A stretch of 20,000 nt of DNA from an uncultured virus (IMG/VR IMGVR_UViG_3300031788_000008) (IMGVR_UViG_3300031788_000008:55793-75792); one strand, 5' to 3'; numbered from the stretch's first letter, positions 5,261 to 17,255 are shown. Translations and numbers: made by a program. The notes: generated from the letters alone by a model not told the origin.

Positions 5261-5324
5261 GAAAAGAGATAAATGGAATAAATCAGTATTATATATTAAG
5301 TCCGGCCCGCCATAATCTGATTAC

Positions 5325-5636
5325 CAAAAAACGCCGTGAAGCCACGCCCTTCAGGCTGGGGATATAAGGCGGAAAGTGCTTGTATTAGATCGCAGGTTGT
5401 GGTATTTTTATTGTATGGCACTCGAAGGCTACAAAATAAGCATTGAAAGTCTTGCGAAAACCAAGCTGGCTAAATCAATGCTGCATTCGGGAATTATCGT
5501 CGCCTCGGGATACATGGAGTCGTTAAACGACTGCGGACAGTGTGTAAGTCTTGCGAAAGCAAGCAGCGCTGGTTGAAACAGTTAAGGGCGGCTTTGCCGC
5601 CTAGAATCCCTCGCCTTTAGGCGTGGGGAGTATCAA
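5325..5636 (+). mobile_element. Non-autonomous IS200/IS605-family element with internally deleted tnpB
   Basis: Preceded by TTAC; left hairpin GAAGCCACGCCCTTCAGGCTGGGG; tnpB fragments MALEGYKI and LAKTKLAKSM; right end GAATCCCTCGCCTTTAGGCGTGGGGAGTATCAA. Confidence 0.85.
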
Positions 5637-5657
5637 TAGATAGGGAGAGAAACAAAT

Positions 5658-5882
5658 ATGAATTTTCAAGAGCGTGTTATAACAGAAAAAAGAGAACTAG
5701 ACAATAAACTGGATAAATTGCAAGCCTTTATAAATGAAGGAACGGTTTATGCACAGCTTCCCAAAGAGGAACGTTCAAGATTAGCGAGACAGGCAACTGT
5801 CATGATTGAGTACTCTCAAATTCTCGCTGATCGTATCGCAAAATTTCAAGGGTATGATCCAACTAAAATTTGGTCTTTGTAA
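5658..5882 (+). CDS. Small coiled-coil phage protein (crAss001_48-like)
   Basis: FQERVITEKRELDNKLDKLQAFI...RLARQATVMIEYSQILADRI pattern; RBS GGGAGA. Confidence 0.75.
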   Translation: MNFQERVITEKRELDNKLDKLQAFINEGTVYAQLPKEERSRLARQATVMIEYSQILADRIAKFQGYDPTKIWSL

Positions 5883-5889
5883 ATAAATC

Positions 5890-5918
5890 TTGACAAATAT
5901 TCCAACTACCAGTATTAT
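5890..5918 (+). promoter_or_regulatory. Sigma70-type promoter of the Tyr/Leu tRNA cluster
   Basis: TTGACA-17 bp-TATTAT. Confidence 0.85.
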
Positions 5919-5933
5919 ACTCATAAGGCATTT

Positions 5934-6017
5934 ATGAACAACATTACCCTATCACCGTCATTGTCGTTGCTGGCTTATTACCTTAGCTTGCCACGCGGCG
6001 GTGTGTTCAACGGGTAA
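5934..6017 (+). CDS. Putative attenuator leader peptide MNNITLSPSLSLLAYYLSLPRGGVFNG (Leu/Ser/Tyr-rich)
   Basis: 27 codons directly after the promoter; Leu CTA,TTG,TTG,CTG,CTT,TTG; Tyr TAT,TAC; Ser TCA,TCA,TCG,AGC. Confidence 0.8.
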   Translation: MNNITLSPSLSLLAYYLSLPRGGVFNG

Positions 6018-6041
6018 ATTTTAACCCGATTCGAATTAACC

Positions 6042-6072
6042 GCCGCCCCGAAATGGGCGGCTTTTGTTTTTT
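6042..6072 (+). terminator. Attenuator terminator, mutually exclusive with antiterminator 5995-6046
   Basis: GCCGCCC-CGAAAT-GGGCGGC-TTTTGTTTTTT; leader GCGGCGGT (5995-6002) is complementary to ACCGCCGC (6039-6046). Confidence 0.85.
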
Positions 6073-6077
6073 GTGGT

Positions 6078-6107
6078 AAGCCCAGACTTCTAGTCTGGGT
6101 AGATGAC
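6078..6107. repeat. Isolated IS200/IS605-type terminal hairpin
   Basis: AAGCCCAGACTTCTAGTCTGGGTAGATGAC; similar to the hairpin at 17020-17046. Confidence 0.55.
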
Positions 6108-6111
6108 CTTT

Positions 6112-6204
6112 GCCTAGAACGCAGATACGGTTGGCTGCATCCGGCTGTAACCCGGAATTTGGCTAGTCCAGACAATGGGAGTTCGAATCTCTCTCTAGGC
6201 ACCA
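6112..6204 (+). tRNA. tRNA-Tyr(GTA)
   Basis: GCCTAGA/TCTAGGC+ACCA; TCCGG-CTGTAAC-CCGGA; long variable arm; TTCGAAT T loop; A instead of U at position 8. Confidence 0.9.
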
Positions 6205-6223
6205 AAATTTTATAGGGGTGATT

Positions 6224-6499
6224 ATGGAAAAATTCATGTCCAGATCGGAACAGAAACGAGTAGCTTCAATGAAGGGAGAGCCCGCGCCTTCATTTGAGAT
6301 TAGAGTTGAATACGATGATGGCGAATCGGTTTGGCATGATGGTAAAAGTCCTTTTTGTACACGCAGGGATCGCCCAATGGGAATGTACGCTATGATGCCG
6401 GATGACACGCAGCGGCCTTTAAATATAGGGTACATGCGTGTGAGTGAAATGCAAGGATTGGAAAAACTCCTCAATGAAATTTTAAATTTTAAGAAATAG
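6224..6499 (+). CDS. Hypothetical protein inside the tRNA cluster
   Basis: RBS AGGGGTG then ATG; exactly fills the gap between two tRNAs. Confidence 0.7.
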   Translation: MEKFMSRSEQKRVASMKGEPAPSFEIRVEYDDGESVWHDGKSPFCTRRDRPMGMYAMMPDDTQRPLNIGYMRVSEMQGLEKLLNEILNFKK

Positions 6500-6503
6500 T
6501 TTT

Positions 6504-6588
6504 GCGGCTGTGGTGGAATGGGCAGACACACCATCTTGAGGGGGTGGCGTCGAAAGATGTGAGAGTTCAAATCTCTCCAGCCGCACCA
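6504..6588 (+). tRNA. tRNA-Leu(GAG)
   Basis: GCGGCTG/CAGCCGC+ACCA; CCATC-TTGAGGG-GGTGG; long variable arm. Confidence 0.95.
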
Positions 6589-6612
6589 AGTTTAGAGTCA
6601 AACCGTAGTTGT

Positions 6613-6711
6613 GAGGTTGCAACGGGGAGCTAACACAATGCTGCTCGATAAGAAGCGAAAGCTTCCGCTCGCGGGCGTAAGGTCGGGGTGCAGGCGTTGA
6701 TCCGTTGCCTC
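6613..6711 (+). ncRNA. Unidentified structured RNA between tRNA-Leu genes
   Basis: Closing stem GCAACGG/CCGTTGC; internal GAAGC-GAAA-GCTTC hairpin; GC-rich island in AT-rich DNA. Confidence 0.45.
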
Positions 6712-6723
6712 TAAAATAAGTTT

Positions 6724-6809
6724 GCCGGGTTGGTGGAATTGGGAGACACTCTGGACTTAGGATCCAGCGGTTAACAGCCATGCAGGTTCGACCCCTGTAC
6801 TCGGCACCA
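6724..6809 (+). tRNA. tRNA-Leu(TAG)
   Basis: GCCGGGT/ACTCGGC+ACCA; CTGGA-CTTAGGA-TCCAG. Confidence 0.95.
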
Positions 6810-6816
6810 AAAATTT

Positions 6817-6907
6817 GCGCGGGTGATGAAACTAGGGAGACATGCAGCGTTCAGACCGCTGTGCCCTTAAACAAGGCGTGCAGGTTCAATTCCTGTTCCG
6901 CGCACCA
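6817..6907 (+). tRNA. tRNA-Leu(CAG)
   Basis: GCGCGGG/TCCGCGC+ACCA; CAGCG-TTCAGAC-CGCTG. Confidence 0.95.
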
Positions 6908-6920
6908 ATTTTGTAGATAG

Positions 6921-7011
6921 GCCAGAATGGCGGAATTAGGGAGACGCGCACGGCTCAAGCCCGTGTGAGCCTAAAAAACTCGTGGGGGTTCGATTCCCCC
7001 TTCTGGCACCA
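6921..7011 (+). tRNA. tRNA-Leu(CAA)
   Basis: GCCAGAA/TTCTGGC+ACCA; CACGG-CTCAAGC-CCGTG. Confidence 0.95.
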
Positions 7012-7200
7012 AAAATAAGTATTACATTTTATGGGCATATTTATTTGGCAGTGTATCAACTGTAAAAAGTTAGTAAAAACTTCCATGGATTTTTCTATCA
7101 ATGATCGTCCAATATGTTTTGAATGATGATGAAGTAGCAGAATTTTTTGCTAGACTTTCAAAAATCAATTTTAAAAAACAATAACTATTTAAGTATCTTA

Positions 7201-7478
7201 AAATATCCATTTTCAGTGTTTCCGATGTATAATTGGGTATGGATATCACACTAAAAATTAAAAGGATCAGTGTCTTAACTGGTCACGGTACTGATAGGAT
7301 TTACCTTTATTTTGATCTGCCTACAACATTTCCTGACTGGCCGCTTGAGGAATGTTCCGCAGTCATCGAAGCGACTAAAGGTTACGGCGTTGCCTGGGTA
7401 AAAGAAAATTTCCACCTAGAACCAGATGTAGTTTCGTCCTGTTTCTGAAATATCCATTTTCAGTGTTTCCGATGTATA
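7201..7478 (+). repeat. 31-bp perfect direct repeat (7201-7231 and 7448-7478), promoter-like
   Basis: AAATATCCATTTTCAGTGTTTCCGATGTATA, continuing as TATAAT or TATACT just before a start codon. Confidence 0.85.
7239..7448 (+). CDS. Hypothetical protein
   Basis: ORF lies exactly between the two 31-bp repeats. Confidence 0.7.
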   Translation: MDITLKIKRISVLTGHGTDRIYLYFDLPTTFPDWPLEECSAVIEATKGYGVAWVKENFHLEPDVVSSCF

Positions 7479-7488
7479 CTAGGGATGT

Positions 7489-7764
7489 ATGAGTAAACCA
7501 CCAATAAGCGAGAAACCTCCTTGGGTTCAAGGGGCTAAAAACACCAAGAAACGAAAGAAGAAAGACAACGATGCGATTCTAAATCCTGTATACGACGCAA
7601 AACTTGTGGAGAAATTGTGCGGAAACGCACGAAGGATAGTTCTTCAAGAAGGCAACGGGATGCTAACAAATGGTGTTCCAACGGAGTTATATTGGCACAT
7701 CAATGGGTGCTCTGCTTGTGAAGAACTTCGCTCCAAGGCTAAACCACCAGAGATACCGTACTGA
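7489..7764 (+). CDS. Hypothetical protein (HxxxCxxC)
   Basis: ORF following the second repeat. Confidence 0.65.
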   Translation: MSKPPISEKPPWVQGAKNTKKRKKKDNDAILNPVYDAKLVEKLCGNARRIVLQEGNGMLTNGVPTELYWHINGCSACEELRSKAKPPEIPY

Positions 7765-7804
7765 GGTGTAACGCATCATGGCCGGGACTGTGATCAGGAG
7801 GAAT

Positions 7805-8092
7805 ATGAACAAGCCGATTATTCTCATTGTAGCACTGAGATACGAAATTGATGGTGATTTAGAAGATGCGAAACGTATGTTGTCTAGAGCTTATGCTCCG
7901 CGTGAGGGAAGAGTTGAAAGTGCAAGTAGCCACAAAGCTACAGCAACATGCATATCAATGCAGGCTGAAATTGAGGAGATGCAAGAAGATATGTGTGAAG
8001 TTAGGAATGGTGTTGGATATGCCTACCTACAGGTCCCTTACCCAGCGGGGGCAGCTGGCGTGCAGCAACAAAAGCAGAGGAAGAAGAAATAG
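7805..8092 (+). CDS. Hypothetical protein
   Basis: RBS AGGAGG before ATG 7805. Confidence 0.65.
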   Translation: MNKPIILIVALRYEIDGDLEDAKRMLSRAYAPREGRVESASSHKATATCISMQAEIEEMQEDMCEVRNGVGYAYLQVPYPAGAAGVQQQKQRKKK

Positions 8093-8135
8093 ACAAAGAA
8101 AAGATCATCAAAGCGATCAAAGAGATCGATGATGA

Positions 8136-8378
8136 ATGTCGGAGGCGGTAATGAAAAGAGAACTCACTGAGAAGTTTTGCCAATTCGTCAACTACCCTGA
8201 AAGCGAGGATGCCTGCGGAGAGCCAGCACGCTGCAAGCATGAGGATGTGTGGTTGTGTGCCGCGCACTACGACATCGTCATGGATTCACCAGACGATTAC
8301 GATGCGATCACTGTGGATAATACGAAGTCATCGTTCGTATTCACTTTGCCGGAAAAAGAACCCAATGCCAAAACCTAA
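8136..8378 (+). CDS. Small Cys/His protein (C...CGEPA...LCAAHYD)
   Basis: Shares CxxHYD with the 1434-2019 paralogs and CGEPA with the 3002 gene. Confidence 0.7.
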   Translation: MSEAVMKRELTEKFCQFVNYPESEDACGEPARCKHEDVWLCAAHYDIVMDSPDDYDAITVDNTKSSFVFTLPEKEPNAKT

Positions 8379-8673
8379 TTTATTCAAAGAAGACGCCATT
8401 TTGGAATCCCAGATTATTGATACTTTAGAAGCTGGTTTGAAGCGGTGGCGACCAGATTTATCTTACCCCGAGTCTTACAGTGATATGCAAGCCTGTGTCC
8501 GGGGTCTGCTAATGGTCTTTGATGTTAAGCGCCTACCTCTGCCAAAGCCCCTGAGAATTGAATGTCATGTTTGTGATGGTTTAGGATATATGATAACGAA
8601 AGCAGAAAATAGCTATCGTGAATCAACGTCTTGTAAAGAATGCAAAGGACGGGGGCACATTCCCAGTGAATAA
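8365..8673 (+). CDS. Hypothetical protein with DnaJ-like zinc-finger repeats
   Basis: CHVCDGLG ... CKECKGRG (two CxxCxGxG). Confidence 0.7.
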   Translation: MPKPNLFKEDAILESQIIDTLEAGLKRWRPDLSYPESYSDMQACVRGLLMVFDVKRLPLPKPLRIECHVCDGLGYMITKAENSYRESTSCKECKGRGHIPSE

Positions 8674-8836
8674 ACGAGTGGATATTCGAGCTATTCTACG
8701 CAATCCGGCGCAACGCCGGGAGTTGATGATTCGCTGCATTATCGCCACACAAGCCAGAGAAGATGTCCAAACCACTTATAAACAGGCCGCCGTAGCTTAT
8801 GATAAAGTCAGTGACTATCGTAAATCAAATTCCTAA
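8666..8836 (+). CDS. Hypothetical protein
   Basis: GTG start overlapping the upstream stop; fills the gap. Confidence 0.55.
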   Translation: MNKRVDIRAILRNPAQRRELMIRCIIATQAREDVQTTYKQAAVAYDKVSDYRKSNS

Positions 8837-8883
8837 TCATTCCACCTCTTGCCATAAACAAATTCTTGAGATAGTATCAAGTT

Positions 8884-9870
8884 ATGGCAAATGCAAGCGC
8901 AAAAAAATTAGATTTTGACGATGAAGATGAATACGAGCCTCGTCCAGAAATAGGGTCAGATGACGATCAAGCTTATTATCATTGGTCCAAGCGAAATGGG
9001 GTATTTCGCCCTGTAGGTCACACTCAAGATACCGTACCAGCCGGTATTTATGAAATTGATAACGATAATAGCGGCTGGTTCCTATCCAAAGTAAAATTTC
9101 CATCAGATGCTCTACTCCGTTTACCTGGAATGCCTATTGATTTTATCCTTGATCAAATTGACACATTTTGGAAGCGTGAAGAATTATTCACCCAAACCAA
9201 ACTCCTCCATAAGCGTGGTATTTTGATGTATGGACCCGCAGGCTGCGGTAAAACATCAATCATTAGACTGCTCTGTGACGATATTGTTAGACGTGATGGT
9301 ATTGTGATCATGGTTACTAACTGCCGCTTGGCGGAAACGGCTCTTGGGGGCATTAGGCAAATAGAAACTCGTAGACCTATTCTTACAATTATTGAAGACA
9401 TCGAAACCTTCATGGGTCCTGGTGATGAATCTTCATCCGCCAGAGCACTGTTGGCTCTGTTAGACGGAGAAACTCAAGTGGATCACATTGTTCATTTGGC
9501 CACGAGTAATAAACCTGAACAATTGGAAGATCGTGTCGCTAAGCGTCCTGGGCGTTTTGATCTAGTAGTAAAATTAAGTCATCCGGTGGAAGAAGCCCGT
9601 AGAGCATACCTGTTAAATTTACTCCACGATCATGTAACCCCTGAAGAACTTCAGATTATGGTAGATGAAACTGAAGGTTTGGGATTGGCCCACTTACGCG
9701 AGTTGGTTGTAGCAAACTATTGCTTAGGCTTGGATCGTAAGCAAACATTAAAGCGTTTAAAGAAAAATTTCACAGGATCCTTAAAGGTCAAAAAGTCGCC
9801 CAGCGAGGGAATGGGATTTACCTTTGGTATCGATGAAGATGAAGATGAAAAATCATTAAAAAATGAGTAA
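8884..9870 (+). CDS. AAA+ ATPase (classical clade, single domain), paralog 1
   Basis: KRGILMYGPAGCGKT Walker A, IIEDIE Walker B, ATSN sensor 1, RPGRFD. Confidence 0.93.
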   Translation: MANASAKKLDFDDEDEYEPRPEIGSDDDQAYYHWSKRNGVFRPVGHTQDTVPAGIYEIDNDNSGWFLSKVKFPSDALLRLPGMPIDFILDQIDTFWKREELFTQTKLLHKRGILMYGPAGCGKTSIIRLLCDDIVRRDGIVIMVTNCRLAETALGGIRQIETRRPILTIIEDIETFMGPGDESSSARALLALLDGETQVDHIVHLATSNKPEQLEDRVAKRPGRFDLVVKLSHPVEEARRAYLLNLLHDHVTPEELQIMVDETEGLGLAHLRELVVANYCLGLDRKQTLKRLKKNFTGSLKVKKSPSEGMGFTFGIDEDEDEKSLKNE

Positions 9871-9872
9871 AT

Positions 9873-10937
9873 ATGCCTGATGAAATTGAACTACCTAAAA
9901 ACGAATTCGACATACTACAGGATCGTATGCAAGCCTCTGAAGTGAACCGTAGAATACTTGGGGCCAATCCAGCAAGCGAGATGAGAAAAGTAGCATCCGT
10001 GGATGGTAGTACACTTCTTTCATCCATGACAAAAAATCAATGGGCTGTATTACCGAATGATTCATTCACAGCCATTGGTACTACGGTTTCTCATTTACCT
10101 CCAGCGATTTATACTTTATCGTCCGATGGGGGCGCGATATTTTTCCATAAAACTAAAGTTCTTACTGATAATTTAATTGATCTGGATGATAGCGCGGCTT
10201 TGCGAATCATTGCCGGAATTGAGAAATTTTGGGAATCTAAATCCAAATTTGATCGTTTTGGTATTCTCTTCAAGCGCGGCATTCTTATGTGGGGACCGGC
10301 GGGGTCTGGAAAAACTGCCGCAGTTAACATGTTGATGAATGATTTGGTGGGGCGCGGTGGAATGGTTGTAATTGTGCAATCCCCAGGTCTTGCGATTGGG
10401 GGACTTCATGAACTTCGACGCATTGAACCGGAGCGTCCAATTATTGTAGTATTAGAGGACATCGAAGAAATGATACAAAATTTCGGAGAGCACGGATTGC
10501 TAAGTCTGCTTGACGGAGAGCACCAAGTTTCTAATGTTGTTGTACTGGCTACCACAAATTACCCAGAGCTTCTTGGCGAACGTATTATCAATCGACCAAG
10601 CCGTTTTGATGAAGTTATTTTAGTAGATATGCCTTCCAAGAATGCACGATATCGGTATCTCAAGCACATATTAAAAGACACGGTACCAGAAGTAGAACTC
10701 CGGCAGTGGGTTATAGCAACCGACAAGCTATCCATCGCCCATTTACGAGAGCTTATTGTTGCTACTCAATGCTTGGATCGCCCATATGCCGAAGTTGTAG
10801 ATCGTTTGAGGCGTATGAAAATTCGCCCGAATAGCGAGAAACGCGATAAAGAAGTTCCAGGCTTTTCAAATGTGGGCATGATAATTCCCGGGAATTTTTC
10901 AAAGGAATGTGGGGGTTCAAGTACATCAAGTAGATAA
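9873..10937 (+). CDS. AAA+ ATPase, paralog 2
   Basis: KRGILMWGPAGSGKT, VLEDIE, ATTN, RPSRFD. Confidence 0.93.
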   Translation: MPDEIELPKNEFDILQDRMQASEVNRRILGANPASEMRKVASVDGSTLLSSMTKNQWAVLPNDSFTAIGTTVSHLPPAIYTLSSDGGAIFFHKTKVLTDNLIDLDDSAALRIIAGIEKFWESKSKFDRFGILFKRGILMWGPAGSGKTAAVNMLMNDLVGRGGMVVIVQSPGLAIGGLHELRRIEPERPIIVVLEDIEEMIQNFGEHGLLSLLDGEHQVSNVVVLATTNYPELLGERIINRPSRFDEVILVDMPSKNARYRYLKHILKDTVPEVELRQWVIATDKLSIAHLRELIVATQCLDRPYAEVVDRLRRMKIRPNSEKRDKEVPGFSNVGMIIPGNFSKECGGSSTSSR

Positions 10938-10993
10938 ATGTCAAGAGCAAATAGTTATGCACAATACTAATAAAGGCTGGTATAGGAAAAAAT

Positions 10994-12136
10994 ATGTCAC
11001 ATTATAGTGTTTTAGTTATCGGTGAAAACGTAGAAGAACAATTAGCCCCCTTTCATGAATTTGAATGTACCGGGGATGACAATGAGTATGTGCAAGATGT
11101 AGATGATACAGAAGAAGCCAGGGAATCTTATAAAGCCGATAAAACAACCATGTATAAAGATCCAGATGGTAACTTACACAGTCCTTGGACAAAAGAAGGA
11201 CACGCCAAATCTGAATTTTATCGAGACCCTACACCAAAAGAAGAAAAAGAACGGGAAGAAACGGGATATTCTAACCTATCTTGTACATCTCAAGACTGGG
11301 GTGACGGTAGGGGATATAGAGACAGAATTAAGTGTCTCCCTGAGGGCTGGCAAGAAGTAGAAGTGCTCACATCTTCTGTGGAAACTTTCGCTGAATTCAT
11401 TAAAGGTTATTACGGGCATGAACCTGTTGCTTTTGGTGAATCTCCTGACCTTGATGAAACCCACAAGTATGGATATGTGATACTTGACGAAAAAGGTGAA
11501 GTGGTACGAAGTATCAATCGGACCAACCCAAATAAAAAATGGGACTGGTGGACTCTCGGTGGTAGATGGAACGGCTTCTTTAAAACAAAAAAAGCAGGAG
11601 TAGGGGTAATGGGTGCGCCTGGTTTGCAATCGGCGCATGAGGATTATGAACCACCTACTGACGATCGTGCCGATGTTTGTACTAAGGATGATATCGATAT
11701 CGATGGGATGCGAGATGAAGCAGAACGCGAAGCCGGTAAGAGTTATGATTTGTATTCCAAAATAGTAGCTGGACTACCTCCGATTGTATCTTGGGAAGCT
11801 ACAGTCGAAAAGCATAACAAAGATTACGCCGCTGCTAGAGAAGAATATAATGCACAACCGGCCGTATTAGTGCTTCGAAAGAACGAAGAGACTACTTGGT
11901 ATGACGCAGATGATTATTTGTGTTCTAGAGAGGTTTTTATTCAACGCTCACGGAATGCTGCTTTCTCTACTTTCGCTGTGGTTAAAGACGGTAAGTGGTA
12001 CGAACGCGGGGAGATGGGTTGGTGGGGCGTGGTGAGGGATGAAAAAGACGCAGATGAATGGTATACTCAGTTTGCATCTCTTGTGGATAGTCTGCCTGGG
12101 GATACTGTAATGACTGTGGTAGATTGTCATATATAA
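10994..12136 (+). CDS. Acidic hypothetical phage protein
   Basis: MSHYSVLV...QLAPF...NPNKKWDWWTLGGRW...W..RGEMGWWG...VVDCHI, a pattern I recall from uncharacterised phage proteins. Confidence 0.8.
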   Translation: MSHYSVLVIGENVEEQLAPFHEFECTGDDNEYVQDVDDTEEARESYKADKTTMYKDPDGNLHSPWTKEGHAKSEFYRDPTPKEEKEREETGYSNLSCTSQDWGDGRGYRDRIKCLPEGWQEVEVLTSSVETFAEFIKGYYGHEPVAFGESPDLDETHKYGYVILDEKGEVVRSINRTNPNKKWDWWTLGGRWNGFFKTKKAGVGVMGAPGLQSAHEDYEPPTDDRADVCTKDDIDIDGMRDEAEREAGKSYDLYSKIVAGLPPIVSWEATVEKHNKDYAAAREEYNAQPAVLVLRKNEETTWYDADDYLCSREVFIQRSRNAAFSTFAVVKDGKWYERGEMGWWGVVRDEKDADEWYTQFASLVDSLPGDTVMTVVDCHI

Positions 12137-12149
12137 ATTGAGGAAAATT

Positions 12150-12305
12150 ATGGCTCGTTTAACAGATGAAGACATCCAAAAAATAGCGGAAACTCCTTTT
12201 GACGGTCTAATTCAAGTTGAGATTTTGACTTACCATACTCAGTTGCTCGCTGAAATCGCACTAAGGCTTGGTGATCTTACTGATATGATTAGTATTCCAA
12301 AATAG
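12150..12305 (+). CDS. Small hypothetical protein (51 aa)
   Basis: RBS GAGGA; MARLTDEDIQKIAETP...ISIPK*; not in the ORF track. Confidence 0.6.
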   Translation: MARLTDEDIQKIAETPFDGLIQVEILTYHTQLLAEIALRLGDLTDMISIPK

Positions 12306-12366
12306 TAGCCCAGATTTGAAAAGACTGGGAGAATATGTCGTACCATTATTGTAGAGGGGAACTAAA

Positions 12367-12537
12367 ATGGCTGTAGAACGGATACAATTGATCAAGCGTA
12401 CGATATGGACAGCGAATTGTCCCCAATGCCAAGACACTAAGGAAGTTACTGAGAATCCACCCAAAGAACGATTTTGTTTGCAATGCAAAATCTGGATACC
12501 GTATGAAGAACAATTTTATTTGGGACCGGAGCTGTAA
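12367..12537 (+). CDS. Small zinc-ribbon protein (56 aa)
   Basis: RBS GAGGGG; CPQC...CLQC; not in the ORF track. Confidence 0.7.
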   Translation: MAVERIQLIKRTIWTANCPQCQDTKEVTENPPKERFCLQCKIWIPYEEQFYLGPEL

Positions 12538-12683
12538 TGGGAAGCGCGCTCCGACCTTGGCAGGTCGCGCGATCTGACCATATCCCCGATCACAGCAATG
12601 TAGCGTTGTGTTTCGACGGTCACATGCGCCTCCTCGACGCCCGCGTCAGTCTGATGTCCCGTGTGGACGGGGCCAAGACCATT

Positions 12684-12761
12684 GTCACCCAAATATGGGT
12701 AACTTTCAACCGGTCACCCATATTTGGGTTACTTAAGTCCAATCACCCAAATGTGGGTGAC
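12684..12761. repeat. Three 20-bp palindromes at 29-bp period
   Basis: GTCACCCAAATATGGGTAAC, GTCACCCATATTTGGGTTAC, ATCACCCAAATGTGGGTGAC with 9-bp spacers. Confidence 0.85.
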
Positions 12762-12918
12762 GCCCGTTATGAGCAGGCCGAGTCGGCCTTGAAAAATCAA
12801 TCAAGCTTCACTCTTTACAGGGAGTTGAGCTAAGCCGCCTTGGGCGCGTACGCGGCGACGGATCCTTTGCGGGCGTTGGCCTAAAATCAATAGCTCTAGC
12901 TCGCAGAAAGGCACGGCT

Positions 12919-13224
12919 ATGAAGATACGCCTACAAACTGCAATAACATTTGTAGCCGCACTGTGGCTGCTGATGCTTCTGGTGGGTTGCGAAGCTGACC
13001 CGGTATCAAGGGTGCAGAGCAGCAACAACAAAAACATCACGGTGGACTTCCTATTTGAACATGAAGGGTGCCGGGTGTACCGATTTGATGACGGCGACAT
13101 GCGGCAGGTTTACTACGCCAACTGCGGTGCGTTCGCACAAACCTCGTGGGACCGCTCGTGCGGCAAAAGCTGCACTGTACACGAAACCGTTTCAACTTCC
13201 GGTTATGGAAAAAGCAAGCATTAA
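12919..13224 (+). CDS. Lipoprotein, DUF4884-like
   Basis: Lipobox LVGC; VDFLFEHEGCRVYRF motif. Confidence 0.75.
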   Translation: MKIRLQTAITFVAALWLLMLLVGCEADPVSRVQSSNNKNITVDFLFEHEGCRVYRFDDGDMRQVYYANCGAFAQTSWDRSCGKSCTVHETVSTSGYGKSKH

Positions 13225-13242
13225 AAAAGGAGAACGAACCCG

Positions 13243-13473
13243 ATGAGTAAAATCACACCAAAGAAAGAGAAAGTGTTTACGATCACAGCCCGCGTTGTGA
13301 TCATTAAAGATCTGGATATCAAGGCCGACACTTTCGAAAAAGCTTTGGAAGAAGCCCAGAAACTATCGGAGTCTGACTTCGTGTCTTACGAGGGGTCGCC
13401 GCTCGATAGCAGCATACGCATCGTATCTATCAGTTCTCCCGACGCATGGCAGGTGGAGCGGCCACGGGGTTGA
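13243..13473 (+). CDS. Hypothetical protein
   Basis: RBS AAGGAG; I.A.TFEKALEEA pattern typical of small phage proteins. Confidence 0.7.
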   Translation: MSKITPKKEKVFTITARVVIIKDLDIKADTFEKALEEAQKLSESDFVSYEGSPLDSSIRIVSISSPDAWQVERPRG

Positions 13474-13602
13474 ACGGTAGCCCAAAGGAGCCGATAAACA
13501 GGCAGCAAGGTGAGGTTCGGTAGAACCGACAAAATGATGCGAGAAGCGGACAAGCACTTCATATGACGGCTGTAGTATCATAGGTACAAGGAATAACAGG
13601 TG

Positions 13603-14154
13603 ATGAAAATAGAGGATTCTGTGGAAACTGTGAATACATCAGCTAAAATTGATATCTTTAAATATGAATGGGAATTTTTGTCTAATTTTTATCCCTGTGA
13701 GATTGTTTGGGAAGGAATTACTTACGCTTCCACAGAGCACGCATACCAAGCGGCTAAGACACTGGATATAGAGAAACGCCGGATGTTTGGATTAGAAGAC
13801 AACCCTCGTTTAACAGCCAAAAAAGCAAAAGATATGGGAGCAAATATCAAGAAGAACGGAGAGCTGCGCTCCGATTGGCTCAAAGTCAATATCGGCATCA
13901 TGCGGGAATTGTTGGTATTGAAATTTGAGAAAGAAGAGCTGAAACAAAAATTATTGTCCACAGGCACCGCTTATTTGGAAGAAGGGAACTGGTGGGAAGA
14001 CAATTTTTGGGGTGTTTGTTATGGGGGCACAGAAAAAGGGTTCCATGGAATCAAATGCGGCAAATGGCCCCATGTCCCTTCGGGTGAAAATCATTTAGGT
14101 TTATTGCTTATGGCTATTAGGGCTACGTTTATTCCTAGAATACAGGTGGCATAA
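13603..14154 (+). CDS. NADAR / YbiA-family protein
   Basis: FLSNFYP, YASTEHAYQAAK, LKF...LKQKLLSTG..YLEEGNWWEDNFWG, GENHLGLLLMAIR. Confidence 0.92.
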   Translation: MKIEDSVETVNTSAKIDIFKYEWEFLSNFYPCEIVWEGITYASTEHAYQAAKTLDIEKRRMFGLEDNPRLTAKKAKDMGANIKKNGELRSDWLKVNIGIMRELLVLKFEKEELKQKLLSTGTAYLEEGNWWEDNFWGVCYGGTEKGFHGIKCGKWPHVPSGENHLGLLLMAIRATFIPRIQVA

Positions 14155-14155
14155 A

Positions 14156-14332
14156 ATGACAAAAAACGAAATACTATACAACTTAAAAAACGGACGAAGG
14201 TTGCGTTGCGATAGGAAAGATGAACCGTTATTGCCTTGGTTGCTAGAACATCCAAACATCCAGAATAAATTTGTGCAAGTTGATGACCAGTCTAGCTATA
14301 TTGAATTTATTTGGGAGAAAAATAATCCTTGA
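14156..14332 (+). CDS. Small hypothetical protein (58 aa)
   Basis: ATG one base after the NADAR stop; MTKNEILYNL...WEKNNP*. Confidence 0.6.
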   Translation: MTKNEILYNLKNGRRLRCDRKDEPLLPWLLEHPNIQNKFVQVDDQSSYIEFIWEKNNP

Positions 14333-14357
14333 CAATTTTTCAACTACCCAGTATTAT
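14329..14357 (+). promoter_or_regulatory. Sigma70-type promoter of the Pro/Met tRNA cluster
   Basis: TTGACA-17 bp-TATTAT; shares CAACTACC(C)AGTATTATA with the 5890 promoter. Confidence 0.85.
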
Positions 14358-14457
14358 ATAAAGAGTAGTAGTAAAGTAAAAGTTGGCTCGGAACGAGCCA
14401 TCAGGAAATGGGGGGTTTTGGGTAAAACTGAAGCCCATCACCAAAATTGAGATAATT

Positions 14458-14526
14458 ATGACCAAAATGCGACCGATGCCGATGTTTCCACCAAGCCCTA
14501 TGGGGCGCGGGGTCGCTGGACTTTAG
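14458..14526 (+). CDS. Putative attenuator leader peptide MTKMRPMPMFPPSPMGRGVAGL (Met/Pro-rich)
   Basis: 22 codons; 5 ATG; Pro CCG,CCG,CCA,CCA,CCT. Confidence 0.8.
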   Translation: MTKMRPMPMFPPSPMGRGVAGL

Positions 14527-14529
14527 TCC

Positions 14530-14558
14530 AACCCCGTGCTAGCGGGGTTCTGTTGTTG
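14530..14558 (+). terminator. Attenuator terminator, mutually exclusive with antiterminator 14505-14539
   Basis: AACCCCGT-GCTA-GCGGGGTT-CTGTTGTTG (imperfect U tract); leader GCGCGGGGT (14505-14513) pairs with ACCCCGTGC (14531-14539). Confidence 0.7.
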
Positions 14559-14601
14559 TAACAAATTTTCCCATATCAAACAGAAATCCCTTTTTGCATT
14601 T

Positions 14602-14676
14602 CAGGGTATAGTGTTAATGGTAGCACCCTAGTTTCGGGAACTAGTAGTCTCAGATCATTCCTGAGTACCCTGACCA
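14602..14676 (+). tRNA. tRNA-Pro(CGG), non-canonical T loop
   Basis: CAGGGTA/TACCCTG+ACCA; CTAGT-TTCGGGA-ACTAG; T loop ATCATTC. Confidence 0.88.
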
Positions 14677-14681
14677 GTTTA

Positions 14682-14717
14682 CGGTGTAGCTCAGCCCGGT
14701 TTAGAGCAAGCACACCG
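14682..14717 (+). pseudogene. Internally deleted tRNA-Pro-like remnant
   Basis: CGGTGT-AGCTCAGCCCGGTTTAGAGC-AAGC-ACACCG: a D arm closed by a short stem; no anticodon or T arm. Confidence 0.55.
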
Positions 14718-14775
14718 ACTTTCGTTACTTTTTGTACAGCTATCAAGATTTTTTGTAAAAGGAGTTACTTTTAAG

Positions 14776-14850
14776 CAGGGCGTAGATCAGAGGAAGATCG
14801 CAAGTCTGGGGGACTTGAGGCCGGAATATCATAATTTCCCGCCCTGACCA
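14776..14850 (+). tRNA. tRNA-Pro(GGG), non-canonical T loop
   Basis: CAGGGCG/CGCCCTG+ACCA; CAAGT-CTGGGGG-ACTTG; T loop ATCATAA. Confidence 0.85.
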
Positions 14851-14872
14851 CAGTTTGAAAATTTAAATTTAA

Positions 14873-14958
14873 CTAGGTGTCGGGTAGTTTGGTTTAGCCC
14901 ACATGCCTTGGGCGCATGTCTCGAAAGAGAATCGCAGGTTCAAATCCTGCCACCTAGA
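14873..14958 (+). tRNA. tRNA-Pro(TGG) with long variable arm, no encoded CCA
   Basis: CTAGGTG/CACCTAG+A; CATGC-CTTGGGC-GCATG; variable hairpin TCTC-GAAA-GAGA; GCAGG-TTCAAAT-CCTGC. Confidence 0.88.
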
Positions 14959-15024
14959 CATTGGCGACTGTCAGCCGTTAGTAAGTCTGACTTAAAGGCG
15001 CATAGAGCGCAGTCGCACTTTTTT

Positions 15025-15285
15025 ATGAGTGTATTCGGCAATACATGCGGCGTACGCATTTACAGAGGTCCATGCACCTGTAAAACTGCCTGCCCTAAAT
15101 GTCAAATAGGCTGCTGGAATCCCGCTGCATATCGTAACCCATGGTTTGGGAAGCCTGGGCACCAGATTTATTGGTGGAGGGATCCATACAGCTACGCGGA
15201 ATTTTTATGCGTAGAGCATTATGATGATGCTGTTAAAGACATTGAAGAATATGAAGAACTTTACCAAACGAAGGGTGTTTGCTGA
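15025..15285 (+). CDS. Small Cys-rich protein (CxxHYD)
   Basis: Start moved to ATG 15025, after the tRNA; FLCVEHYDD. Confidence 0.65.
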   Translation: MSVFGNTCGVRIYRGPCTCKTACPKCQIGCWNPAAYRNPWFGKPGHQIYWWRDPYSYAEFLCVEHYDDAVKDIEEYEELYQTKGVC

Positions 15286-15286
15286 A

Positions 15287-15475
15287 ATGAAATATATTTA
15301 TGAAGATCACGAGAAGCATACCACATGGGAATGTGAAGCCGAGGATTTGCTTGCAGCGGATAAACTCTATGAAGCCGCTGGATGTAGGATGAGTGAAAAC
15401 GCAAAAAGAAAAAAATCTATGCCTAATGATGTAGGGGCATGGTCACCCGATTGGGCGTGTAACAAAAAGGCATAA
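15287..15475 (+). CDS. Small hypothetical protein
   Basis: ATG one base after the upstream stop. Confidence 0.6.
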   Translation: MKYIYEDHEKHTTWECEAEDLLAADKLYEAAGCRMSENAKRKKSMPNDVGAWSPDWACNKKA

Positions 15476-15503
15476 TAGGTTTATTCCAACTAATGGAGGA
15501 AGT

Positions 15504-16164
15504 ATGATTATCGAAATTAGAGCGGCTGAAGGCGGACAGGACGCAAAATTACTGGTCGAAGATCAAATGACCATCTACGCGAGGTTGGCGATACGGAGGG
15601 GTCTTTGAGTTTGATGTTACCGAACAACGCCCAGGTATAGCTATCCTGCGCATTACAGGGGCTACAGCGCCTCAAGTCTTCGCTAACGAGGCAGGAGGTC
15701 ACCGTTTTCAGAGAATTCCTCCCACGGAGCGTAGCGGTAGAGTTCAAACCAGTACAATTACTGTGGCTGTTTTTGATGAACCGGAAGTTGCTGCTTTTGC
15801 CGTATCCCCAAATGATTTGGCATGGGAGACAATGCGCAGCGGGGGTAAGGGCGGTCAAAACGCCAATAAACTGGAAACAAAAATACGCTTAAAACATAAA
15901 CCTACAGGATTAGTCGTGGTTTGCGAATCAGAACGTAGCCAAAAAAGAAATAAAGACACGGCCTTAGCTGTCCTTACAGCACGTTTGTACGCTGCTGATA
16001 AGGATAAAAAAGCTGAAGCTGCTACTACGGATAGGCGACAACAAATAGGAACGGGACAACGAGGAGATAAACGCCGTACAATACGAGAAAAAGATGGAAA
16101 AGTCGTAGACCATATCACCGGTCAAAAATGGCGTTATTCTGATTATGTAAAAGGCATTTGGTAA
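15504..16164 (+). CDS. Class I peptide chain release factor, RF1-type PxT motif, no domain 1, expressed through a +1 frameshift at 15603-15608
   Basis: RBS GGAGGA; MIIEIRAAEGGQDAKL...RRGL(CTT TGA); +1 frame EFDVTEQRPG...NEAGGHRFQRIPPTERSGRVQTSTITVAV...GKGGQNANK...ERSQKRNK...KRRTIR; about 219 aa. Confidence 0.92.
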
Positions 16165-16167
16165 AAA

Positions 16168-16779
16168 ATGGAACAATATCCACATATCGAAGGCAGTACA
16201 AAGGCTCCTATAGGAGAACCGTGCATCGCTTTTTATAAGTACGATGGTAGTAATCTGCGCTTCGAATGGAGCCCTAAAAAAGGCTGGCATAAGTTTGGCA
16301 CCAGAAAAGAACTTTTTGACGCTCGCCATCCTTTGTGGTCTCAAGCCCTTCCCTTGTTTTTAGAGTTTGGAGATGAGATTGTAAAACGAGTGAAAGCATC
16401 GGATTGGCGATTGAAAGGTATCCAACGAATTACTGTTTTTTGTGAATTCTTTGGACCTAGCAGTTTTGCCGGAATTCATGATGAAAAAGAGCCTAAAGAA
16501 TTGCGTTTGATCGATGTATACCTTTTCAAAAAAGGTATGATGCCAGCGAAGCAATTTGTAGAAATTTTTGGAGATATGCCCCAGGCAGCACAGGTAATTT
16601 ATCAGGGAAATTTGACTAAGCAATTCATAGATGATGTGCGCTTTGGGGCTTATTCTGTGAATGAGGGCGTGGTCGCTAAGGGCGCTGATTTTCGGGTAAA
16701 AATAAAAACTGCTGCTTACTTCAAAAAATTGAATGAACGGCTCCCAGAGTTAGCGAATGCCTTTGATTGTGAGTATTAG
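16168..16779 (+). CDS. ATP-dependent RNA ligase-like nucleotidyltransferase (Rnl2-type)
   Basis: Motif I YKYDGSN, III FCEFFG, IIIa LIDV, IV EGVVAK, V VKIK; no OB domain. Confidence 0.82.
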   Translation: MEQYPHIEGSTKAPIGEPCIAFYKYDGSNLRFEWSPKKGWHKFGTRKELFDARHPLWSQALPLFLEFGDEIVKRVKASDWRLKGIQRITVFCEFFGPSSFAGIHDEKEPKELRLIDVYLFKKGMMPAKQFVEIFGDMPQAAQVIYQGNLTKQFIDDVRFGAYSVNEGVVAKGADFRVKIKTAAYFKKLNERLPELANAFDCEY

Positions 16780-16792
16780 ACTCTGTACGAGT

Positions 16793-16890
16793 TTGTGCTA
16801 ATACGAGGTGCGGAGTTCCATAGATTTAGGCGGAACAAGACCTAATTTCGGAACTCTACTGGCGACGGTCAGAGTTACCTCGTAGCACAA
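16793..16890 (+). ncRNA. Unidentified rod-like structured RNA
   Basis: TTGTGCT/AGCACAA, ACGAGGT/ACCTCGT, GGAGTTCC/GGAACTCT nested stems. Confidence 0.5.
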
Positions 16891-16892
16891 TT

Positions 16893-17046: not shown

Positions 17047-17156
17047 AGCAGTATTTTTTCAATTGGTGTATTCACCGTTTGCAGATTTGTACCGCTGGGG
17101 TTAATAAGGACGGTTGGTATGGAAAGTATAGGGACTTGGTAAAATTTTTTATTTAC

Positions 17157-17235
17157 GCCAGTGTAGCATAGTCCGGCCTAATGCGCTTCGCTCATAACGA
17201 AGAGATCGGTGGTTCAAATCCACCCGCTGGTACCA
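17157..17235 (+). tRNA. tRNA with CAT anticodon (elongator Met; Ile2 not excluded)
   Basis: GCCAGTG/CGCTGGT+ACCA; CTTCG-CTCATAA-CGAAG; GGTGG-TTCAAAT-CCACC. Confidence 0.92.
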
Positions 17236-17255
17236 AAATTTTAATGGAAAGTATA

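What the first reader, a model, noticed from the sequence alone, without database searches (positions are those of the whole stretch)
5890..14560. A repeated tRNA-sensing module: same promoter, same architecture, different codons
Seen: both modules have TTGACA-17-TATTAT with CAACTACC(C)AGTATTATA, a short leader with control codons followed by CGC-GG (Arg-Gly) as the antiterminator strand, a small hairpin over the stop codon and an overlapping terminator. The sequences differ but the pairing is kept, and tRNAs are grouped by the amino acids in their leader. Two independent matches make chance unlikely. Inference: a genome-wide feedback system supplying phage tRNAs on demand, for example after host anticodon nucleases (PrrC, PARIS AriB, retron PtuAB, VapC types) or starvation deplete specific tRNAs.
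Basis: partly seen in the sequence, partly recalled or inferred. Interest (0 to 1): 0.93.

Follow-up and report, generated by a model that had tools for sequence, protein, structure and literature searches.

The report
Leader-peptide switches gating phage tRNA genes
In this giant soil phage and its relatives, each block of tRNA genes sits behind a tiny test gene spelled in the codons those tRNAs read, followed by a switchable stop signal, so the phage probably makes a tRNA set only when ribosomes read its codons slowly.

Summary
Two modules (5890-6075 and 14329-14560) each have a consensus promoter, a short ORF, a stop-codon hairpin and a terminator with a competing antiterminator. They sit 50-52 nt before tRNA-Tyr plus 4 tRNA-Leu, and before the tRNA-Pro genes. 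Leader 1 has 8 Leu/Tyr among 26 codons. Leader 2 has 5 Pro and 4 Met among 21.

Using a helicase as lineage marker I found a sibling contig (G012), two IMG/VR relatives (G015, G016) and the cultured Tunturiibacter phage Tunturi_5. Together they give 13 modules in 5 genomes. All 13 leaders are enriched in the amino acids of their own tRNA block (P 1e-2 to 8e-7). None of 200,000 random leader-to-block assignments matches the real one. Orthologues keep the switch strands and the reading frame.

The best reading (0.8) is a ribosome-mediated transcription attenuator that controls tRNA genes. Nine literature searches found no such case. This scan has noted look-alikes on other DNA (e1-2978539 and others). 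The trigger, whether anticodon nucleases or codon mismatch, is untested, and no experiment exists yet. Tunturi_5 offers a culturable test system.

The parts
5890..5918 (+). Promoter P1: TTGACA, 17 nt, TATTAT, with the spacer element CAACTACCAG
   Evidence: the ACTACC..GTATTAT element recurs before three modules of G016
5934..6017 (+). Leader ORF 1, MNNITLSPSLSLLAYYLSLPRGGVFNG. It has 6 Leu (CTA, TTG x3, CTG, CTT) and 2 Tyr codons. The 5' UTR is only about 9 nt
   Evidence: orthologue in G015 with the frame kept
5953..5959 (+). Region 1, which pairs with region 2 when the leader is not being translated
   Evidence: MFE fold
5995..6002 (+). Region 2, the 5' strand of the antiterminator (GCGGCGGU; codons CGC GGC GGT)
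6011..6028 (+). Small hairpin over the stop codon TAA (6015-6017), enclosed by the antiterminator
6039..6046 (+). Region 3, the 3' strand of the antiterminator (ACCGCCGC). It overlaps the 5' strand of the terminator
6042..6075 (+). Intrinsic terminator GCCGCCC-CGAAAT-GGGCGGC followed by TTTTGTTTTTTGTG
6112..7011 (+). Regulated block 1: tRNA-Tyr(GTA), a 93-aa ORF (6218-6499), then tRNA-Leu GAG, TAG, CAG and CAA
14329..14357 (+). Promoter P2: TTGACA, 17 nt, TATTAT, with the spacer element CAACTACCCAG
14384..14436 (+). Two hairpins in the ~94-nt 5' UTR of module 2 (14384-14400 and 14413-14436). Their role is unknown
14458..14526 (+). Leader ORF 2, MTKMRPMPMFPPSPMGRGVAGL. It has 5 Pro (CCG x2, CCA x2, CCT) and 4 internal Met codons
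   Evidence: orthologue in G015
14469..14476 (+). Region 1 of module 2, which pairs with 14509-14516 when the leader is untranslated
14504..14513 (+). Region 2, the 5' strand of the antiterminator (GGCGCGGGGU; codons GGG CGC GGG GTC)
14517..14530 (+). Small hairpin UGGAC-UUUA-GUCCA over the stop codon TAG (14524-14526)
14530..14559 (+). Terminator AACCCCGU-GCUA-GCGGGGUU with a T-rich tail CTGTTGTTGT. Its 5' strand (14531-14540) is the partner of the antiterminator
14602..14959 (+). Regulated block 2: tRNA-Pro(CGG) at 14602-14676, a cloverleaf with GGG anticodon at about 14775-14861 (hand-read; missed by ARAGORN and Rfam), and tRNA-Pro(TGG) at 14873-14959
17157..17235 (+). tRNA-Met(CAT), possibly the distal end of the same unit. 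In the G015 orthologue Met and Phe tRNAs are interleaved with the Pro tRNAs

Best explanation
Both modules are ribosome-mediated (leader-peptide) transcription attenuators, and the genes they control are tRNA genes.

Proposed mechanism. A strong host-type promoter fires and the short leader is translated while RNA polymerase is still on it.
- If the leader's Leu/Tyr codons (module 1) or Pro/Met codons (module 2) are read quickly, the ribosome reaches the stop codon. There it covers region 2 and melts the stop hairpin. The terminator forms and transcription ends 50 nt before the tRNAs.
- If those codons are read slowly because the matching charged tRNAs are scarce, the ribosome stalls upstream and region 2 stays free. 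Region 2 pairs with the 5' strand of the terminator, and polymerase runs into the tRNA block.
- With no translation at all, region 1 pairs with region 2 and the terminator forms, so the default state is off.
Newly made phage tRNAs speed up reading of the leader and shut the block off again. That gives a separate negative feedback loop for each decoding class.

Shown from sequence: the parts, the mutually exclusive pairings, the codon match, and their conservation in 5 genomes.

Inferred: translation of the leaders, coupling to polymerase, and what depletes the tRNAs in nature (a poor match between phage codons and the host pool early in infection, tRNA-cleaving defences, or starvation).
For: Anatomy and three-state folding of M1 and M2. 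In MFE folds the terminator disappears when the RNA is free from codons 13-21 (M1) or 6-16 (M2), and it returns once region 2 is masked.

Placement. The two best promoters and the two best terminators of the window pair up directly before the two multi-tRNA blocks. Only 9 plus-strand terminator-like hairpins exist in the 75.8 kb contig.

Codon match in the window.

Related genomes, found through the helicase, give 11 more modules: G012 has 1, G015 has 3, G016 has 4 and Tunturi_5 has 3.
- All 13 of 13 leaders are enriched for their own block's amino acids (P 1.3e-2 to 8.2e-7).
- 0 of 200,000 random leader-block assignments reach the observed score.
- An exact test on the first six modules gives 1 of 720.
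- 204 of 208 in-set leader codons are readable by an anticodon of their block.

Co-variation among the Tyr/Leu-type leaders. Ser is 10/29 and 7/31 where Ser tRNAs are in the block, against 4/26 and 3/23 where they are not. Cys codons occur only in Tun_A, whose block holds tRNA-Cys. TTA occurs only in the G016 leader; its block has tRNA-Leu(TAA), as Tun_A's also does.

Orthologue alignments (M1 with G015_YL, M2 with G015_PMF). The switch strands and terminator are nearly unchanged. The indels that fall inside the ORF are 9 nt and 6 nt, so the frame is kept. A 6-nt insert falls in the loop of the stop hairpin.

RNA-library contigs of 4 of 4 runs bridge promoter, leader, terminator and first tRNA in both modules.

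Rfam finds no other known RNA element here.
Against: There is no experiment, and translation of the leaders is not shown.

The Shine-Dalgarno-like motifs are weak (AAGG, GAGA), and M1's 5' UTR is only about 9 nt.

M2's T-tract is poor (CTGTTGTTGT).

Leader 1's Leu/Tyr richness is unremarkable against random short ORFs (26 of 306).

The MFE switch is broad (6 or more codon steps) in 7 of 13 modules. It is narrow in 3, only a weakening in 2 (G012_M3, G016_GAV), and absent in 1 (G016_ITQ).

When everything downstream of the stall site is free, the terminator state is 2.5-4.4 kcal/mol more stable than the antiterminator state, so the switch must be kinetic.

Orthologous modules are not independent data points.

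For 3 leaders I took an internal ATG. With the longest ORFs the enrichment stays (P 0.02, 3.8e-4, 6.9e-7).

The RNA-library contigs cannot show ends or levels, and they may include DNA.

Three tRNA loci of the window (395, 17157, 19057) have no module of their own. A more distant relative, G019, has none either.
Confidence: 0.8

Rival explanations
1. The short ORFs are translated and do sense decoding, but the output is not transcription termination. For example, a stalled ribosome might change processing or stability of the tRNA precursor, or the hairpins might act as RNase sites.
For: In 3 of 13 modules the competing pairing only weakens the terminator or is absent in MFE folds. A strong extra hairpin with no T-run lies between terminator 1 and tRNA-Tyr (6080-6100; 0 of 200 shuffles fold as well).
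Against: All 13 modules end in a G+C-rich hairpin with a T-rich tail, placed 8-97 nt before the first tRNA (377 nt in one case). In 7 modules the alternative pairing removes that hairpin completely.
Confidence: 0.07
2. A protein factor controls the terminators, as lambda Q acts at pR'-tR', or a phage regulator binds the shared promoter spacer. On this view the ORFs are incidental.
For: A promoter followed 125-190 nt later by a terminator is the layout of Q-controlled late units (from my own knowledge). The spacer element ACTACC..GTATTAT lies between the -35 and -10 positions. It occurs in the own contig only at the two modules, and it recurs before 3 modules of the distant relative G016.
Against: It does not explain why 13 of 13 ORFs are spelled in the amino acids of their own tRNA block. 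It does not explain why indels inside the ORFs keep the frame. It does not explain why the antiterminator strand sits in the last codons. A factor could still act in addition. No Q-like gene was searched for.
Confidence: 0.06
3. These are stand-alone genes for micro-proteins or small RNAs, each with its own promoter and terminator, that merely lie beside the tRNA arrays.
For: Each unit is a complete promoter-ORF-terminator cassette.
Against: The peptides share composition with the neighbouring tRNAs, not sequence with each other. Their composition changes with tRNA gain and loss. The tRNA blocks have no promoter of their own between the terminator and the first tRNA.
Confidence: 0.04
4. Chance: unrelated promoters, ORFs and hairpins that happen to line up.
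For: Leader 1 alone is weak evidence (26 of 306 random short ORFs are as Leu/Tyr-rich).
Against:: the same layout occurs 13 times in 5 genomes, with a diagonal leader-block match not reached in 200,000 random assignments.
Confidence: 0.01

Closest known systems
Leader-peptide transcription attenuators of enterobacterial amino-acid operons (trpL, hisL, leuL, pheL, and the multivalent thrL and ilvL leaders)
   Same: The layout is the same: a promoter-proximal short ORF rich in the cognate codons; regions 1:2, 2:3 and 3:4 with mutually exclusive pairing; a rho-independent terminator; off by default without translation. Several leaders here are multivalent, like thr and ilv, with up to nine amino acids sensed (G016_big).
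   Different: The regulated genes are tRNA genes, that is, the sensed molecule itself, rather than biosynthetic enzymes. The loop is therefore direct autoregulation of tRNA supply. The owner is a phage. There is no sequence or Rfam-model similarity to Leu_leader, His_leader, Thr_leader or Trp_leader (no hit at E<=1). A stop-codon hairpin sits inside the antiterminator in all 6 modules whose folds I read. The family description is from my own knowledge.
pheST (phenylalanyl-tRNA synthetase) attenuator with the pheM leader of E. coli
   Same: It is a leader-peptide attenuator that controls a component of the translation apparatus rather than a biosynthetic pathway (recalled, not checked in a paper here).
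   Different: It controls an aminoacyl-tRNA synthetase, senses one amino acid, and is a cellular gene.
T-box riboswitches
   Same: They also couple tRNA status to a terminator/antiterminator choice upstream of translation-related genes.
   Different: T-boxes bind uncharged tRNA directly through a specifier codon and the T-box sequence, and they need no ORF. No RF00230 match was found in the window. Here the reading frame is conserved.
Look-alike modules noted earlier by this scan on other DNA (e1-2978539, e1-5886956, e1-6043918, e1-5943215, e1-5926040, e1-5802700; e1-4946342 in CPR bacteria)
   Same: The notes describe the same idea: a short ORF written in the codons of the downstream tRNA array, followed by a switchable terminator.
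   Different: They are on other genomes. None overlaps this window, Tunturi_5 or G012. I did not re-test them.

Membership tests
Leader-peptide (ribosome-mediated) transcription attenuator | A short ORF with a start codon close behind a promoter and ahead of the regulated genes | tested here: met
   ORFs of 27 and 22 codons begin 15 and 100 nt after the -10 element. No other ATG-started ORF of 10 or more codons lies between promoter and terminator; in module 2 an in-frame TTG start and a 10-codon TTG ORF exist. The SD-like motifs are weak.
Leader-peptide (ribosome-mediated) transcription attenuator | The ORF is enriched in codons whose decoding reports the regulated product | tested here: met
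   13 of 13 leaders are enriched for their own tRNA set, and 0 of 200,000 random assignments do as well.
Leader-peptide (ribosome-mediated) transcription attenuator | An intrinsic terminator lies between the leader and the regulated genes | tested here: met
   The M2 T-tract is weak.
Leader-peptide (ribosome-mediated) transcription attenuator | An antiterminator excludes the terminator, and its 5' strand lies where a ribosome at the stop codon masks it | tested here: met
   Shown for M1 and M2. Across the 13 modules the switch is broad in 7, narrow in 3, a weakening in 2 and absent in 1.
Leader-peptide (ribosome-mediated) transcription attenuator | Read-through rises when the cognate charged tRNA is limiting | not testable with these tools
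   This needs reporters, Term-seq or in vitro coupled assays. RNA-library contigs only show that bridging molecules exist.
Leader-peptide (ribosome-mediated) transcription attenuator | The regulated genes encode amino-acid biosynthesis or aminoacylation enzymes (all published members known to me) | tested here: not met
   The downstream genes are tRNAs. This is the point of novelty.
Curated Rfam leader families (Leu_leader, His_leader, Thr_leader, Trp_leader) | A match to the covariance model | tested here: not met
   Only tRNA matches reach the gathering score, and no leader family appears at E<=1 over 5880-7300 and 14300-19200.
T-box riboswitch | Specifier loop and T-box sequence (Rfam RF00230), with no need for translation | tested here: not met
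   No match. The reading frame is conserved through 3n indels.
Lambda Q-type promoter-proximal antitermination unit | A factor-binding element between -35 and -10, and a Q-like protein | tested here: inconclusive
   A conserved ACTACC spacer element exists. No Q-like gene was searched for, and the model does not account for the codon match.

The most novel reading that the evidence does not exclude
Giant phages sort their tRNA genes into regulons by decoding class, for example GNN-codon tRNAs, long-variable-arm Tyr/Leu/Ser tRNAs, and Pro/Met/Phe tRNAs. Each regulon gets its own ribosome-stalling sensor. The sensor segment is re-coded as tRNAs are gained or lost, while a conserved switch cassette is reused (for example the ...DGWDG-stop ending). 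The system would work as a per-codon-class thermostat, and also as an alarm that refills exactly those tRNA species that host anticodon nucleases or phage-induced tRNA turnover remove. If so, it is a counter-defence sensor built from RNA and the host ribosome alone. It may be widespread, given this scan's look-alikes in unrelated phages and in CPR bacteria.
Probability: 0.4. Interest if true: 0.92.

Novelty: new variant of a known kind. Interest (0 to 1): 0.88.

Why it matters
How phages control their own tRNA genes is essentially undescribed. tRNA arrays are usually treated as constitutive codon-usage helpers or as decoys against tRNA-cleaving defences.

A leader-peptide attenuator in front of each array would mean three things:
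- tRNA supply is under closed-loop control, separately for each decoding class.
- The classical attenuation mechanism has a second, unrecognised field of use, with RNA genes as targets.
- The leader peptides can be read as a label of which tRNAs belong to one transcription unit.

It also gives a direct handle on the arms race over tRNAs, because the sensors should fire when defence nucleases cut their cognate tRNAs. Tunturi_5 grows on a cultured Tunturiibacter strain (PMC11924767), so the idea can be tested at the bench now.

Tried and rejected
Searches for relatives that found nothing or were uninformative:
- DNA similarity search of both modules against 50,697 phage records gave only two short tRNA-Leu matches or nothing.
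- The promoter-core pattern in IMG/VR gave 47 loci, none with TTGACA upstream and none related.
- The two flanking proteins (crAss001_48-like and NADAR) gave no relatives.
- Exact 35-nt cores of leader 1 and leader 2 gave 0 other IMG/VR contigs.
- The promoter core in the metagenome contigs gave 6 near-identical copies of M1 or M2 and 2 unrelated hits, and no further module with this core.

A wrong lineage marker. The 380-aa protein (10994-12136) gave 21 loci. It proved to be an accessory gene spread over unrelated phages. The lack of leaders before their tRNAs therefore says little.

Other negatives:
- G019 (helicase 32% identical) has a mixed tRNA cluster with no leader or terminator.
- There is no protein-level synteny between the window and Tunturi_5 around the Tyr/Leu block.
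- M1 and M2 do not align beyond the promoter, so they are not recent duplicates.

RNA-library contigs. The tRNA-Leu array (6551-7184) has almost no cover in 3 of 4 runs. Mature tRNAs and filtered reads make this uninterpretable. I did not use the loose-end letters as a query.

Literature. Nine searches found no leader-peptide attenuator of tRNA genes. Papers outside the held library were not searched.

Full report
WHERE THE WINDOW LIES. The window is the last 20 kb of a 75.8 kb IMG/VR virus contig. CheckV rates it 24% complete, which implies a genome of roughly 300 kb, and its G+C content is 42%. All 10 tRNA genes that ARAGORN finds in the contig lie in the window. The DNA recurs almost unchanged in many runs labelled peat metagenome and in six metagenome contigs.

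THE OBSERVATION.
- Promoters. TTGACA-17-TATTAT occurs at 5890 and 14329 with the shared spacer CAACTACC(C)AG. A third copy without that spacer is at 18803. That is 3 matches against 0.03 expected.
- Module 1. The promoter is followed by a 27-codon ORF (5934-6017, MNNITLSPSLSLLAYYLSLPRGGVFNG), a hairpin over its stop codon, and the terminator GCCGCCC/GGGCGGC with a T-run (6042-6075). tRNA-Tyr starts 50 nt later, and four tRNA-Leu genes follow.
- Module 2. It has a 94-nt 5' UTR with two hairpins, a 22-codon ORF (14458-14526, MTKMRPMPMFPPSPMGRGVAGL), a stop-codon hairpin, and the terminator at 14530-14549. tRNA-Pro(CGG) starts 52 nt later.
- Ranking. These promoters and terminators are the top-ranked sites of the window. 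The whole contig has only 9 plus-strand terminator-like hairpins.
- Known families. No Rfam family other than tRNA matches, even at E<=1.

SWITCH LOGIC. Folding shows three states in both modules.
- With all the RNA free, an upstream segment of the ORF (region 1) pairs with region 2, and the terminator forms.
- With region 1 masked, region 2 pairs with the 5' strand of the terminator and encloses the stop hairpin. Region 2 is GCGGCGGU at 5995-6002 in M1 and GGCGCGGGGU at 14504-14513 in M2. The terminator is then gone.
- With region 2 masked, as by a ribosome at the stop codon, the terminator is back.
I moved the free 5' end codon by codon. The terminator is lost over 9 (M1) and 11 (M2) consecutive steps. 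Shuffled upstream sequence competes with the terminator as well in 30 of 1000 (M1) and 22 of 1000 (M2) trials. The terminator state is still 2.5-4.4 kcal/mol more stable, so the choice has to be kinetic, as in classical attenuators.

CODON MATCH IN THE WINDOW. Figures are against the contig's coding background.
- Leader 1 has Leu+Tyr at 8/26 (P=0.008).
- Leader 2 has Pro at 5/21 (P=0.006) and Pro+Met at 9/21 (P=1e-5).
- Each leader against the other block's set is not significant.
- The six Leu codons of leader 1 (CTA, TTG x3, CTG, CTT) are those read by the four Leu anticodons present. TTA is the phage's commonest Leu codon, has no tRNA here, and is absent from the leader.
- A caveat applies to leader 1. 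Among 306 short six-frame ATG ORFs, 26 are as Leu/Tyr-rich. Only leader 2 itself is as Pro/Met-rich.
- CCT in leader 2 fits a cloverleaf with a GGG anticodon at about 14775-14861. I read this by hand and it folds as a cloverleaf, but ARAGORN and Rfam do not call it.

FINDING TRUE RELATIVES.
- Searches with the promoter, the flanking proteins and the leader cores found only copies of the same phage.
- A 380-aa neighbour was a false lineage marker.
- The contig's DNA helicase worked. It led to G012 (an IMG/VR contig with a 100% identical helicase), G015 (170.5 kb, 56% identical), G016 (316.9 kb, 99% complete, 41%), and the cultured jumbo phage Tunturiibacter phage Tunturi_5 (PP885688.1, 308.7 kb, 41.6%).
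- The host of this phage group is therefore probably Acidobacteriota.
- The Tunturi paper (PMC11924767; I read the passages that hold 'tRNA', 'Tunturi 5' or 'jumbo') reports 43 tRNA genes and says nothing about their regulation in those passages.

THE SAME MODULE, THIRTEEN TIMES.
- G012 equals the window up to position 5636 at 99% identity, then diverges and carries a 15-tRNA array. At its head are a promoter, the ORF MNKIHTNSNAVCTEHGTVAAAAAVGDTVSSDGWDG and a terminator, 22 nt before tRNA-Val. The array decodes Val, Ala, Cys, Asp, Gly and Glu.
- G015 has three cluster heads and G016 four. Tunturi_5 has three main tRNA clusters. Every one carries a short ORF ending 3-31 nt before a hairpin with a T-rich tail.
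- Examples, given as leader then tRNA set:
  - MKNLSSNSLSSLSYSSSLLSGLVLPDGWDG, with Tyr, Leu and Ser.
  - MRNRKPNPMQWQPKRHFSRPSFGGLPFAP, with His, Arg, Asn, Lys, Phe, Met, Pro, Gln and Trp.
  - MLTITMPHTQTQTTISSGGGACLA, with Ile, Thr and Gln.
  - Tunturi_5 MKTLCLSSYCLSSSLSLSDGWDLRTGRDADMI, with Leu, Cys, Tyr and Ser.
- All 13 leaders are enriched for their own set (P 1.3e-2 to 8.2e-7). None of 200,000 random leader-to-block assignments reaches the observed score, by either of two scores. The exact test on the first six modules gave 1 of 720.
- 204 of 208 in-set codons are readable by an anticodon of the block. This is expected to be high, because the blocks hold nearly full isoacceptor sets.
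- For three leaders I chose an internal ATG. With the longest ORFs the enrichment remains.
- Orthologous modules are not independent, so the counts overstate the number of independent events.

CO-VARIATION AND CONSERVATION.
- Among the four Tyr/Leu-type leaders, Ser is 10/29 and 7/31 where Ser tRNAs are present, against 4/26 and 3/23 where they are absent. Cys codons occur only where tRNA-Cys is in the block.
- The G015 orthologue of module 2 (MNTMRPFSGFRPYTPPSVRGVASL) heads a block of Pro, Met and Phe tRNAs. This makes it likely that the Met codons of leader 2 refer to the tRNA-Met gene or genes further downstream in the window (17157).
- Alignments of M1 with G015_YL and of M2 with G015_PMF show nearly unchanged switch strands and terminators. 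Indels inside the ORFs are 9 and 6 nt, so the frame is kept. A 6-nt insert sits in the loop of the stop hairpin.
- The MFE switch is broad in 7 of 13 modules, narrow in 3, a mere weakening in 2, and absent in 1.

RNA DATA. Four metatranscriptome runs, held only as contigs, each have a contig that bridges promoter, leader, terminator and first tRNA in module 1 (5607/5613/5721 to 6195-6364). Each also has one for module 2 (14033/14325/14330/14376 to 14778-14842). Molecules that run through the terminators therefore exist in RNA libraries. Contigs cannot show ends or levels, and DNA carry-over cannot be excluded.

MECHANISM. The best reading is a ribosome-mediated attenuator per tRNA block.
- Slow reading of the block's own codons stalls the ribosome upstream of region 2. 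The antiterminator forms and the tRNAs are made.
- Fast reading brings the ribosome to the stop codon and the terminator forms.
- This is closed-loop control of the sensed molecule itself.
- By the usual ribosome footprint of about 12-15 nt downstream of the A site (general knowledge), codons 10-16 of leader 1 and codons 6-9 of leader 2 are best placed to sense. The last control codons would already mask region 2.
- What depletes the tRNAs in nature is open. It could be a mismatch between phage codons and the host pool early in infection, tRNA-cleaving defences, or starvation.
- Context fits a conflict over tRNA and ribosomes. An RNA-ligase-like gene, a truncated RF1-like gene and a NADAR gene lie beside the arrays here. 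Tunturi_5 has a CCA-adding enzyme and an RtcB-type ligase among its arrays.

COMPARISON WITH WHAT IS KNOWN. It works like the trp/his/leu/thr/ilv leaders and meets their structural definition. It is not a member of any curated leader family, and its targets are RNA genes. Nine full-text searches found no description of leader-peptide control of tRNA genes. This scan has noted look-alikes on other genomes, but none on the DNA studied here. I rate it a new variant of a known kind.

LIMITS.
- There is no experiment.
- Only about a quarter of this genome is held.
- SD-like motifs are weak and M1's 5' UTR is very short.
- The conserved ACTACC promoter-spacer element is unexplained. It could mean that a protein factor acts as well.

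Noticed in passing
window 15504-16164 (+): A 219-aa release-factor-like gene can be read only through a +1 shift at CTT TGA G, preceded by GGAGGGG, as in prfB. Read through, it matches the RF1 (prfA) profile over residues 2-207 with 205 bits, better than RF2 (134 bits). It lacks the N-terminal domain, like RF-H. An RF1-type factor whose synthesis depends on poor UGA termination would be unusual.
   Followed up: partly
window 16168-16779 (+) and 13600-14154 (+): An RNA-ligase-like gene (phrog_548, E 5.6e-5; a KxDG motif read by eye) lies directly after the RF1-like gene. A NADAR-domain gene lies just before module 2. Together they suggest a possible tRNA or ribosome repair cassette.
   Followed up: partly
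window 17257-18425: The TnpB (IS605 OrfB) gene is an insertion polymorphism. Two metagenome copies of the phage (L078, L080) join 17256 directly to 18426. L080 also lacks 16770-16994.
   Followed up: partly
window 17119-17134 and 17244-17259: An exact 16-nt direct repeat, ATGGAAAGTATAGGGA, flanks tRNA-Met. The second copy abuts the TnpB insertion point.
   Followed up: partly
window 14775-14861 and 14680-14715: The first stretch is a cloverleaf with a 7-bp acceptor stem, a GGG anticodon and an encoded CCA, but an aberrant T arm. ARAGORN and Rfam both miss it. The second stretch is a fragment that looks like the 5' half of a tRNA.
   Followed up: partly
window 6080-6100: A strong 9-bp hairpin (-17.7 kcal/mol; 0 of 200 shuffles fold as well) lies between terminator 1 and tRNA-Tyr. 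It has no T-run and its role is unknown. RNA-library contigs of a variant diverge from the window right at 6076.
   Followed up: no
window 18803-19130: The third consensus promoter is followed by about 225 nt of apparently structured RNA with no leader or terminator. Then comes an ARAGORN 'tRNA-Met' that the Rfam tRNA model does not support at E<=1.
   Followed up: partly
window 5636; G012 (L132+L133): A sibling genome is 99% identical up to 5636. It then carries a methyltransferase-like ORF and a 15-tRNA array for GNN codons plus Cys, interrupted by GIY-YIG and HNH endonuclease genes. By eye, the loose-end consensus at 5636 in three RNA runs matches the first bases of G012 after its divergence point, so both forms appear to coexist.
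   Followed up: partly
G012 M3, G016 L198, Tunturi_5 L164:1657-1755: Three leaders with different sensor parts end in, or contain, the same ...DGWD(G) segment (GGTTGGGAC). This suggests a reused switch cassette with exchangeable sensor codons.
   Followed up: no
window 5913-5918 and 14352-14357; G016 L198:534, L200:651, L201:112: The element ACTACC-N(1-4)-GTATTAT just upstream of and overlapping the -10 is specific to tRNA-module promoters. In the own contig it occurs only at the two modules. It is conserved in a relative whose helicase is 41% identical. It could be a site for a regulator or a phage-specific promoter class.
   Followed up: partly
window 5290-5640: A roughly 350-nt non-coding stretch lies after a bidirectional terminator. 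It carries a duplicated GTCTTGCGAAA motif and many helices. RNA-library contigs of three runs start at about 5607-5613. There is no Rfam match.
   Followed up: no
G009 (L089, L101): An unrelated large phage that shares the 380-aa accessory protein carries a tRNA with a CTA anticodon (an amber suppressor type).
   Followed up: no
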